The notes beneath the pieces are model-generated. The model searched no databases and was not told the origin of the DNA. It saw nothing but the letters and a program-made list of their open reading frames with translations. A program made the translations under genes and the position numbers. Below are positions 9,461-10,295 of a stretch of DNA of 13,007 bases, in pieces (position 1 is the stretch's first letter; every line of letters begins with the position of its first letter). The stretch comes from a virus (Duplodnaviria; Heunggongvirae; Uroviricota; Caudoviricetes), in IMG/VR virus record IMGVR_UViG_3300029162_000078, positions 1-13,007 of that record; one strand, 5' to 3'.

Positions 9461-10234
9461 TCAAAAATTAGGTGAGTAACGGACCGGGGACATAGCTCCT
9501 TTTTTTCTTAATTCATCTGGTATTTTTTTTCCAAGATAAAGATTTGCTATTTCAGGTGGGGCTTCTCGACCTTCAAAACCATAGCGAGAACTTTGTGTTG
9601 CCTCAAAGTCCGGATCCTCGTCCCAGTATTTCATCGTAGGGAAATTTTCACGTGTTGATTTGAGCCATTTATCAGCAATGAAAACCCCTCGAACGATCCC
9701 CCTTACAGTAGCAAGAATGACTTCTGCTTGGCTGGCGCGAGAGACATTAATGCGCCAGCTAAATCGAACCGCATCATAAAGCTCTGAATCCTTTGCACTT
9801 CTGTTAACGGAAATCATTAATGCTTTATGATGAAATGTTATGGTTTCGGGTTGATATGTTGCTATCAACTCTTTGACATGCGCGGCGCCGAATTCATTGC
9901 TGCCAGCACCATTCATGATATTCGTTAACCCAGGGTAGGCATCAATAAGTGCTGCTTCAACTTCGTACGCCGTCTTTTCATCAGTCATTCCATGTCGATG
10001 GATGACATGGATAACTTCAAGTCCCGCTAATCTTATTTCTCTGATTTGCTTTAGCTTGTTGCTCAGTAACTCGTCATCATCAGCCGCTGCCACTTCACCG
10101 CGCATATGGGCAAATACGCGGTTACCTTTGCCTTTCCCTACATAGAAGGTGCTTCCGTCCCTAGGATCAATCAATCGGTATACATACCAGCCAAGGTGTT
10201 CAATTACTCCAGAAGGAAACTCAGTAATATCCAT
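9461..10234 (-). CDS. GIY-YIG family nuclease with uncharacterised C-terminal domain of about 130 aa (homing-endonuclease-like or restriction-like cargo)
   Basis: Preferred start is the ATG at 10234 (MDITEFPSG...); the TTG at 10285 lies upstream of the predicted -10. N-terminal GIY-YIG motifs: [28 protein letters not shown] (GIY...YIG plus Arg and His), then [12 protein letters not shown] (catalytic Glu) and NIMNG (Asn). AT-rich relative to the tail module. Confidence 0.75.
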
Positions 10235-10266
10235 TTTGCAATATCTGTGAATTATTTGTGAGACGT

Positions 10267-10295
10267 ATATTAATGAACATTGCAAGGGCTTACAA
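10267..10295 (-). promoter_or_regulatory. Candidate sigma-70 promoter of the GIY-YIG gene
   Basis: On the minus strand, TTGTAA (-35; plus 10290-10295), a 17-nt spacer, then TAATAT (-10; plus 10267-10272), about 30 nt upstream of the ATG at 10234. Confidence 0.35.

What the first reader, a model, noticed from the sequence alone, without database searches (positions are those of the whole stretch)
9461..10295. GIY-YIG nuclease cargo gene in the slot where e14 carries mcrA, with its own promoter
Seen in sequence: a 257-aa protein with a complete GIY-YIG catalytic motif set (VYR...YVGKG...R..H...E...N) and a C-terminal domain of about 130 aa that I cannot assign to any family I know. The gene is AT-rich, convergent with pin, and has a plausible sigma-70 promoter. 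Established knowledge: the position just distal to the Din invertase is a cargo slot (mcrA next to pinE in e14, mom next to gin in Mu), and GIY-YIG plus a C-terminal DNA-binding domain is the I-TevI homing-endonuclease architecture. Inference: this is either a free-standing homing-type endonuclease or a nuclease-based exclusion/restriction determinant with an undescribed recognition domain.
Basis: partly seen in the sequence, partly recalled or inferred. Interest (0 to 1): 0.65.

Follow-up and report, generated by a model that had tools for sequence, protein, structure and literature searches.

The report
Known anti-T4 restriction nuclease (PD-T4-3/CMoRE)
The gene is real and intact, but it is PD-T4-3/CMoRE, a published and crystallised E. 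coli prophage enzyme that cuts phage DNA carrying hydroxymethyl- or glucosyl-hydroxymethyl-cytosine, so the find is correct but not new.

Summary
Window 9461-10234 (- strand) encodes an intact 257-aa GIY-YIG protein, convergent with a pinE-type invertase (8846-9400) and lower in G+C (0.44) than the tail genes (0.58).

It is not undescribed. It matches the PADLOC model PD-T4-3 end to end (E 2e-140). It is 254/257 identical to the crystallised E. coli O157:H7 CMoRE (PDB 9U75/9U8D). PD-T4-3 was found by functional selection (Vassallo 2022). Liu et al. [quoted passage not shown] The C-terminal domain, a fold without known relatives, senses 5hmC/5ghmC. The tetrameric GIYxY-YIG nuclease cuts CN11/N9G, and an acidic loop prevents self-cleavage. 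Every residue named in that paper's text is present here.

The "same slot as mcrA" claim is confirmed: homology to e14 stops one base after the pin stop codon. The homing-endonuclease alternative is rejected. The proposed promoter is only an 8/12 consensus match, but published clones with no more than 189 bp of upstream DNA are active.

The gene occurs in 838 of 5426 complete E. coli genomes.

Verdict: already known, low interest. Side notes: a 38-bp hairpin duplication flanks the cassette, and an empty site carries Septu nearby.

The parts
9461..10234 (-). PD-T4-3 / CMoRE coding sequence, 257 aa plus stop (stop 9463-9461)
   Evidence: ORF and translation. PADLOC PDLC04031 PD-T4-3, E 2.2e-140, residues 1-256 of a 256-position model. 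PDB 9U75/9U8D, E 1e-172, 254/257 identical; 9U7U/9U7Z, 85.2% identical. RefSeq annotates the same gene as 'LEM-3-like GIY-YIG domain-containing protein'.
9875..10234 (-). [quoted passage not shown] It carries the GIYxY-YIG tyrosines Y17/Y19/Y31, R39, E91, N105 and the acidic autoinhibitory loop D52-D53-D54-E55
   Evidence: Pfam PF22945 matches residues 28-110, E 2.4e-14. Residue check against the numbering in Liu et al. 2026.
9464..9856 (-). C-terminal modification-sensing domain (about residues 127-257; Y127 contacts the 5-hydroxymethyl group)
   Evidence: No Pfam or NCBIfam family. PHROG 5356 'unknown function' covers it. Aligned residue for residue to the crystallised domain that binds 5hm-dCTP.
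10235..10431 (-). Upstream region that travels with the gene.
   Evidence: Identical to the O157:H7 EC4115 upstream region except for 1 nt (TTGTAA versus TTGTGA); homology to O157 stops at 10431. The consensus scan does not call a promoter. Published clones with native upstream DNA are active: Vassallo cloned 189 bp plus 33 bp of flank into a promoterless vector, and Liu used the native promoter.
9400..9441 (.). Hairpin copy 1, between the convergent stop codons of pin and CMoRE; a likely bidirectional terminator
   Evidence: RNA fold -22.5 kcal/mol, z -5.4 on the + strand; -16.3 kcal/mol, z -3.6 on the - strand. The terminator scan does not call it because the loop exceeds 8 nt.
10423..10460 (.). 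Hairpin copy 2, a degenerate direct repeat of copy 1 that marks the distal edge of the cassette
   Evidence: Repeat families D6/D7 and alignment A1. In the empty-site locus L006, a single copy (3555-3592) aligns to both window 9403-9440 and 10423-10460.
8846..9400 (+). pinE-type serine invertase (184 aa), the conserved left border of the slot
   Evidence: Pfam Resolvase 9e-52 plus HTH_7. 92% nt identity to K-12 pinE, with homology ending at 9401.
1399..1445 (+). attL: 3' part of thrW tRNA-Thr(CGU), 47-bp exact repeat
   Evidence: the repeat finder family D1. tRNA-Thr at 1369-1444.
11853..11899 (+). attR: second copy of the 47-bp thrW repeat. It closes a 10.45-kb degraded prophage that contains the gene
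   Evidence: the repeat finder family D1, 100% identical. Homology to complete prophages ends at 11899.

Best explanation
The gene is an allele of PD-T4-3, renamed CMoRE. [quoted passage not shown]

Mechanism, shown in the literature for proteins 98.8% and 85% identical and inferred for this allele:
- The C-terminal domain binds 5-hydroxymethylcytosine or glucosyl-5hmC in incoming T-even phage DNA.
- A dimer within a tetramer reads two modified cytosines about 21 bp apart.
- The N-terminal GIYxY-YIG nuclease cuts between them (CN11/N9G, 2-nt 3' overhangs).
- The acidic loop D52-E55 lies over the active site and keeps unmodified host DNA out.
- Defence is direct, not abortive: phage DNA is destroyed and the cell survives.

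The gene is expressed from its own upstream ~190 bp and ends at a hairpin it shares with the convergent pin gene.
For: - Sequence identity: full-length PADLOC PD-T4-3 hit, E 2.2e-140. 254/257 identity to PDB 9U75/9U8D and 85.2% to 9U7U/9U7Z over all 257 residues.
- Residues: every residue named in the text of the paper is present. These are Y17, Y19, Y31, R80, V92, L96, Y127 and four consecutive acidic residues in the loop (DDDE here and in APEC O1, DDDD in O157).
- Discovery: selected against T4 from ECOR68 and validated from native upstream DNA (Vassallo 2022, PMC9519451).
- Mechanism: about 10^5-fold protection against T2/T4/T6. T4(hmC) is sensitive and T4(C) resistant. In vitro cleavage only of 5hmC/5ghmC DNA. 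Catalytic and oligomerisation mutants lose defence (Liu 2026, PMC12923530).
- Native host: deleting the gene in strain NILS69 raises plating of Tevenvirinae.
- Distant homologue: a 48%-identical Capnocytophaga protein behaves the same way.
- Upstream DNA: the 190 bp upstream differ by 1 nt from the O157:H7 allele that is active from its native promoter.
- Single-gene cassette: neighbours differ between loci while the gene plus its ~197 bp upstream stay together.
Against: - Nothing was measured for this exact allele. It differs from the crystallised O157 protein at E55D, Q169K and N197H. E55 and N197 also occur in the active APEC O1 protein. Q169 is not seen in either crystallised protein.
- The surrounding prophage is heavily degraded.
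- No promoter reaching 9/12 consensus is found upstream.
- The APEC O1 gene was only weakly active from its own promoter, so the expression level here is uncertain.
Confidence: 0.95

Rival explanations
1. It is a free-standing homing endonuclease of the I-TevI type: a GIY-YIG nuclease plus a sequence-specific DNA-binding domain that spreads its own gene by cutting alleles that lack it.
For: - GIY-YIG N-terminal domain followed by a second domain.
- A weak PHROG 314 'homing endonuclease' hit, E 0.0022, confined to the nuclease domain.
- Some jumbo-phage homologues are annotated 'putative homing nuclease' by their depositors.
Against: - The protein is 98.8% identical to an enzyme shown to cut only 5hmC/5ghmC DNA, across the whole T4 genome and without strict sequence specificity, and to act as a tetramer.
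- The C-terminal domain is a base-modification sensor, not an I-TevI zinc-finger/helix-turn-helix module, and it has no Pfam match.
- The gene sits at a prophage end next to att, not inside or beside a target gene.
- The E. coli host DNA is untouched during infection.
Confidence: 0.01
2. It is an intact but functionally silent relic. The gene sits in a decaying prophage and is not expressed enough, or the Q169 allele is impaired, so it gives no protection in its host.
For: - The prophage has lost most genes. Only one invertase crossover site remains, and the tail module is truncated.
- No strong consensus promoter and no obvious Shine-Dalgarno sequence before the ATG.
- The APEC O1 allele is weak from its native promoter.
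Against: - The ORF is full length, with all named functional residues.
- The gene is kept at 95% or higher nt identity in 838 of 5426 genomes, across several prophage backbones and integration sites.
- The upstream region is virtually identical to that of the strongly active O157 allele.
- A chromosomal copy is active in its native host NILS69.
Confidence: 0.04

Closest known systems
PD-T4-3 / CMoRE (E. coli O157:H7, PDB 9U75 and 9U8D; E. coli APEC O1, PDB 9U7U and 9U7Z; original isolate ECOR68)
   Same: Same length (257 aa). 98.8% and 85.2% identity over the full length. Same GIYxY-YIG motif, acidic loop, dimer/tetramer interface residues and 5hmC-contact residue Y127. In O157:H7 EC4115 the gene has the same genomic neighbour (pinE) and the same upstream 190 bp.
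   Different: Three substitutions against O157 (E55D, Q169K, N197H). The DNA beyond 197 bp upstream differs: the window has a second hairpin copy, whereas O157 has a serU tRNA 3' fragment.
McrA (EcoKMcrA) of cryptic prophage e14
   Same: Occupies exactly the same slot, starting one base after the pinE stop codon and lying next to the prophage att end. It is also a single-protein type IV modification-dependent restriction enzyme (PADLOC mREase_IV). By general knowledge, not tested here, it acts on modified cytosine.
   Different: Unrelated protein: HNH nuclease, 277 aa, co-directional with pinE rather than convergent. No sequence similarity between the two cassettes. By general knowledge, McrA targets 5mC/5hmC in a sequence context and is blocked by glucosylation, whereas CMoRE ignores 5mC and cuts glucosylated hmC.
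I-TevI-type GIY-YIG homing endonucleases
   Same: GIY-YIG catalytic fold at the N-terminus, joined by a flexible linker to a separate target-recognition domain.
   Different: Recognition is of a base modification, not a sequence. The enzyme is tetrameric. It has an extra tyrosine (GIYxY-YIG) and an inserted autoinhibitory acidic loop. There is no homing context.
UvrC N-terminal GIY-YIG domain / Pfam LEM-3-like GIY-YIG (PF22945)
   Same: Closest structural relative of the nuclease domain according to Liu et al.. The only Pfam family that passes threshold.
   Different: CMoRE has a 15-residue acidic insertion between helices 2 and 3 and a C-terminal sensor domain. It has no role in repair.

Membership tests
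PD-T4-3 / CMoRE | Full-length match to the family profile | tested here: met
   PADLOC PDLC04031, E 2.2e-140, protein 1-256 on profile 1-255 of 256.
PD-T4-3 / CMoRE | Close identity to an experimentally characterised member | tested here: met
   254/257 identical to 9U75/9U8D and 219/257 to 9U7U/9U7Z.
PD-T4-3 / CMoRE | GIYxY-YIG motif (three tyrosines: Y17, Y19, Y31) | tested here: met
   W-Y17-V-Y19-R and F-Y31-V-G-K-G are present at the published positions.
PD-T4-3 / CMoRE | Inserted acidic autoinhibitory loop with four consecutive acidic residues | tested here: met
   D52-D53-D54-E55, the same as APEC O1; O157 has DDDD.
PD-T4-3 / CMoRE | C-terminal modification-sensing domain, including Y127 | tested here: met
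   Residues 127-257 align without gaps to the crystallised domain, and Y127 is present. PHROG 5356 covers the domain.
PD-T4-3 / CMoRE | Single-gene system | tested here: met
   The gene plus ~197 bp upstream is the only unit shared between loci with different flanks.
PD-T4-3 / CMoRE | 5hmC/5ghmC-dependent DNA cleavage and protection against T-even phages | not testable with these tools
   Shown for the O157, APEC O1, Klebsiella, ECOR68, NILS69 and Capnocytophaga proteins. Not shown for this allele.
GIY-YIG nuclease superfamily | GIY-YIG catalytic domain with conserved Tyr, Arg, Glu and Asn | tested here: met
   PF22945, E 2.4e-14, above the gathering score. The generic PF01541 model scores below its cut-off, 13.7 against 22.6 bits.
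GIY-YIG homing endonucleases (I-TevI-like) | Sequence-specific DNA-binding module (zinc finger, minor-groove helix, HTH, NUMOD/IENR) after the nuclease | tested here: not met
   No Pfam or NCBIfam domain in residues 120-257. That domain is a 5hmC sensor in the crystal structures.
GIY-YIG homing endonucleases (I-TevI-like) | Located in an intron, or free-standing between conserved phage genes, with a cleavable endonuclease-lacking allele | tested here: not met
   It lies at the prophage end between pin and att, as a cassette flanked by a duplicated hairpin. Cleavage of the empty allele was not tested.
McrA / HNH type IV restriction enzymes | HNH nuclease domain homologous to EcoKMcrA | tested here: not met
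   There is no similarity between the window cassette and the e14 mcrA segment. PADLOC mREase_IV matches McrA but not this protein. The relationship is functional analogy only.

The most novel reading that the evidence does not exclude
The protein is known, but the way it is carried may not be described. The ~38-bp hairpin just after the pin stop codon, next to the prophage att end, may act as a recurrent exchange point. Through it, e14-/Mu-tail-like prophages would swap single-cassette defences: McrA, CMoRE, Septu.

The CMoRE cassette seems to have been captured from a serU-integrating relative. The apparent junction is a GAAACC microhomology between the serU-derived att stretch and the hairpin.

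A second unexcluded reading comes from the Capnocytophaga homologue, which also cuts Mom-modified Mu DNA. The E. coli enzyme might likewise police Mu-like phages whose mom gene occupies the equivalent slot.
Probability: 0.15. Interest if true: 0.3.

Novelty: already known. Interest (0 to 1): 0.08.

Why it matters
It matters little as a discovery. The gene, its phenotype, its biochemistry and its structure are all published. Defence-annotation tools already recognise it, and it is present in about 15% of complete E. coli genomes.

The practical value is annotation. RefSeq still calls it a 'LEM-3-like GIY-YIG domain-containing protein', and Pfam, NCBIfam and PHROGs give no function. A reader without the defence-system libraries will keep rediscovering it.

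The context has modest comparative interest. The same base position after pinE holds unrelated type IV restriction enzymes in different prophages, and an empty site shows the insertion boundaries.

Tried and rejected
- NCBIfam gave no hit, and Pfam gave nothing for the C-terminal half. PHROGs returned only an 'unknown function' family.
I therefore rest the promoter claim on published clones, not on sequence.
- A search for the 22-nt hairpin core in e14 found nothing, so e14 lacks this repeat and the mcrA cassette boundary lies at the pin stop itself.
- The whole 13-kb window has no 80%-or-better match in any complete E. coli genome, so I could not name the source strain. The arrangement is a strain-specific deletion derivative of longer thrW prophages.
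- ARAGORN did not call the tRNA fragment upstream of the O157 gene. Rfam gave only a below-threshold hit to an unrelated-sounding plastid family. Direct alignment to K-12 serU settled the question.
- The main text of Vassallo et al. does not contain the string 'PD-T4-3'. The details came from its supplementary table.
- I did not run structure prediction, fold searches or the large protein-database searches. Solved structures at 98.8% identity make them redundant.
- I considered and rejected a toxin-antitoxin or abortive-infection reading. There is no partner gene, and published growth curves at high MOI show direct defence.

Full report
**1. The observation**

Window 9461-10285 is listed as a minus-strand ORF from a TTG start. 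The biologically sensible start is the ATG at 10234, which gives 257 aa (MDITEFPSG...VRYSPNF) with the stop at 9463-9461.

The GIY-YIG signature is there: WY17VY19R, FY31VGKG, R39, H43, E91/E93, N105. Pfam places residues 28-110 in PF22945 (LEM-3-like GIY-YIG, E 2.4e-14). The generic GIY-YIG model falls below its cut-off. Nothing in Pfam or NCBIfam covers the C-terminal ~130 residues.

The gene is convergent with a 184-aa Resolvase/HTH_7 invertase at 8846-9400. Its G+C is 0.437, against 0.58 for the tail genes.

One point is weak. The proposed promoter (TTGTAA, 17 nt, TAATAT; 10295-10267) matches 8 of 12 consensus positions. The scan, which requires 9 of 12, does not call it, and it finds fewer sites in this region than in shuffled sequence.

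**2. What it is**

The PADLOC library of defence-system proteins matches the protein end to end to PD-T4-3 (E 2.2e-140).

A search of solved structures returns two sequences, both deposited as 'GIY-YIG domain-containing protein'. They are 9U75/9U8D (E 1e-172) and 9U7U/9U7Z (E 1e-150), each aligned 1-257 without gaps. The window protein differs from 9U75 at three positions (E55D, Q169K, N197H; 98.8% identity) and from 9U7U at 38 (85.2%).

Those entries belong to Liu et al., Nat Commun 2026 (PMC12923530), who renamed PD-T4-3 'CMoRE'.

PD-T4-3 itself came from the functional selection of Vassallo et al. 2022 (PMC9519451). Their supplementary table lists it as clone T4-16, COG3680 (GIY-YIG), from ECOR68 contig QOZA01000068. 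The ORF is 774 nt, the same length as here, and it was validated from a 996-bp fragment (flanks of 189 and 33 bp) in a vector lacking an upstream promoter.

**3. How it works**

This is shown for the near-identical proteins and inferred for this allele.

Phenotype and substrate:
- The O157:H7 and Klebsiella genes, expressed from their native promoters, lower plating of T2, T4 and T6 by about five orders of magnitude. Cells survive high MOI, so defence is direct.
- T4 DNA is depleted genome-wide within 8 minutes while host DNA is untouched.
- Purified enzyme cuts DNA containing 5hmC or glucosyl-5hmC but not C or 5mC DNA, and binds only the former.
- T4(hmC) is restricted and T4(C) is not.
- Cleavage maps to CN11/N9G with 2-nt 3' overhangs and needs two modified cytosines.

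Structure:
- An N-terminal GIY-YIG domain closest to UvrC, with an extra tyrosine (GIYxY-YIG: Y17, Y19, Y31).
- A 15-residue acidic loop lying over the active site. Changing its four acidic residues to alanine makes the enzyme cut ordinary DNA and makes it toxic.
- A dimer-of-dimers whose disruption (V92S/L96S, loop deletion) abolishes defence.
- A C-terminal domain with no sequence or structural relatives that binds 5hm-dCTP, with Y127's backbone carbonyl bonding the hydroxymethyl group.

Every residue named there is present in the window protein at the same number. The acidic run is DDDE, as in APEC O1.

Independent support:
- Deleting the chromosomal gene in clinical isolate NILS69 raises plating of Tevenvirinae phages.
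- A 48%-identical Capnocytophaga homologue restricts T4 but not T4-GT7. At high dose it also cuts Mom-modified Mu DNA.

**4. Context**

The window runs from proA (1-1254) and thrW tRNA-Thr (1369-1444) into a 10.45-kb prophage remnant. The remnant is bounded by exact 47-bp repeats of the tRNA 3' end, at 1399-1445 and 11853-11899. Its contents, in order:

| Window position | Feature |
|---|---|
| 1459-2622 (-) | integrase |
| 2499-3890 (-) | small early genes |
| 3969-7871 (+) | truncated Mu-type baseplate module |
| 7981-8819 (-) | tail-fibre assembly gene and tail-fibre C-terminus |
| 8846-9400 (+) | pin |
| 9461-10234 (-) | CMoRE |
| 11014-11346 (+) | FlxA-like ORF |

Longer versions of the same prophage exist in other strains.

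The 'mcrA slot' claim is exact. Homology to K-12 e14 covers pinE at 92% identity and stops at window 9401, one base past the stop codon. After that point e14 has mcrA and then attR.

On the other side, homology to O157:H7 EC4115 runs through the gene and 197 bp upstream, to 10431, then breaks. The mobile unit is therefore about 9401-10431. Its upstream 190 bp differ from O157 by one base, inside the putative -35 hexamer (TTGTAA versus TTGTGA). This supports the view that the gene carries its own expression signals.

**5. Frequency and slot contents**

The coding sequence occurs at 95% or higher nt identity in 838 of 5426 complete E. coli genomes. The e14 mcrA segment occurs in 340, and full-length pinE-type genes in 1272.

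Sampled neighbours of pin:

| Strain (locus) | What follows pin |
|---|---|
| BS15R-A (L004) | CMoRE, in a prophage lying by yodB/serU |
| DX6 (L005) | CMoRE, behind a different baseplate module |
| MEI3A-1023 (L006) | Septu (PtuA E 1e-170, PtuB E 2e-32) |
| P2-like phages (L007, L008) | no cargo; the invertase sits between fibre and sheath genes |

**6. Cassette boundaries**

This is a side result. A ~38-bp hairpin follows the pin stop at 9400-9441 (-22.5 kcal/mol, z -5.4). A degenerate copy lies at 10423-10460, and a third partial copy at 10817-10835.

In MEI3A-1023, which lacks CMoRE, a single hairpin (L006 3555-3592) aligns to both window copies, and the flanks continue on either side. That is an empty-site versus filled-site pair with a 38-bp duplication.

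In O157:H7 the DNA just beyond the shared 197 bp is identical to the 3' 62 nt of K-12 serU tRNA-Ser(CGA). That fragment occurs in 5422 of 5426 genomes, with extra copies in many.

My inference is as follows. CMoRE was the last gene before attP in a serU-integrating phage, as mcrA is in e14. It then moved into thrW-type prophages by homologous exchange in pin, plus an illegitimate join at a GAAACC microhomology.

**7. Comparison and verdict**

The protein is a member of PD-T4-3/CMoRE on every sequence criterion I could test. Only the phenotype of this exact allele is untested.

It works like McrA, as a single-protein type IV restriction enzyme in the same slot, but it is unrelated to McrA in fold.

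It shares the GIY-YIG fold and a two-domain layout with I-TevI. It fails the defining features of a homing endonuclease: no sequence-specific binding module and no homing context.

The 'undescribed recognition domain' has been described and crystallised.

Novelty: already known. Interest: low.

Noticed in passing
window 9400-9441, 10423-10460 and 10817-10835; L006 3555-3592: A ~38-bp hairpin-forming element directly after the pin stop is duplicated on both sides of the CMoRE cassette, with a third partial copy further on. Strain MEI3A-1023 has a single copy and no CMoRE, giving an empty-site versus filled-site pair.
   Followed up: partly
L003 8761-8822 (O157:H7 EC4115); window ~10405-10431: In O157:H7 the DNA just upstream of the CMoRE cassette is identical to the 3' 62 nt of serU tRNA-Ser(CGA). 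In strain BS15R-A the pin-CMoRE module sits by yodB/serU. The window keeps only about 20 nt of this att-like stretch, fused to the hairpin. This suggests the cassette came from a serU-integrating prophage in which it was the last gene before att.
   Followed up: partly
window 12363-13007 (+): Immediately beyond attR an ORF begins whose first 214 aa match IetA, the AAA ATPase of the Iet defence system (PADLOC E 1.9e-50; Pfam AAA). It is cut by the window end. A second defence system therefore abuts the prophage remnant at the thrW island.
   Followed up: no
window 1399-1445 and 11853-11899; whole element 1446-11852: Exact 47-bp direct repeats of the thrW 3' end bound a 10.45-kb prophage remnant. 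An integrase and early genes are joined to a truncated Mu-type baseplate module (the DNA-circularisation gene lacks its 5' part). No complete E. coli genome in the collection has this exact arrangement; best coverage is 67%.
   Followed up: partly
window 8769-8788; L002 7782-7801 and 9609-9628: Only one Din-family crossover site (TCCCAAACCAACGTTTATGA, just upstream of pin) is left in the window, whereas e14 has an inverted pair. Homology to the ymfQ gene of e14 and of the longer prophage L001 stops at 7996, where the tail-fibre assembly gene (7981-8418) begins. The invertible tail-fibre segment is probably frozen and pin has no local substrate.
   Followed up: partly
phage records H68-H84 (e.g. 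Serratia phage Moabite 6406-7161, Pseudomonas phage OBP 158703-159449, Klebsiella phage N1M2 129135-129860): Full-length CMoRE homologues (38-45% identity over 97-99% of the protein) are encoded by 250-285-kb jumbo phages of Serratia, Pectobacterium, Pantoea, Pseudomonas and Klebsiella. Some are annotated 'putative homing nuclease'. They might serve to destroy co-infecting phages with hmC DNA.
   Followed up: no
L006 3890-5987 (-): In strain MEI3A-1023 the region downstream of pin carries a Septu system (PtuA E 9.6e-171, PtuB E 2.2e-32) followed by an FRG-domain gene. This shows the pin-to-att interval is a variable defence slot.
   Followed up: partly
window 10437-10811: RefSeq annotates a short 'capsid protein' pseudogene fragment and a 'hypothetical protein' over the equivalent stretch in other strains, overlapping hairpin copy 2. 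The small ORFs here (10437-10673 -, 10581-10811 +) have no Pfam or PADLOC match, so the 'capsid' label looks like an annotation artefact.
   Followed up: no
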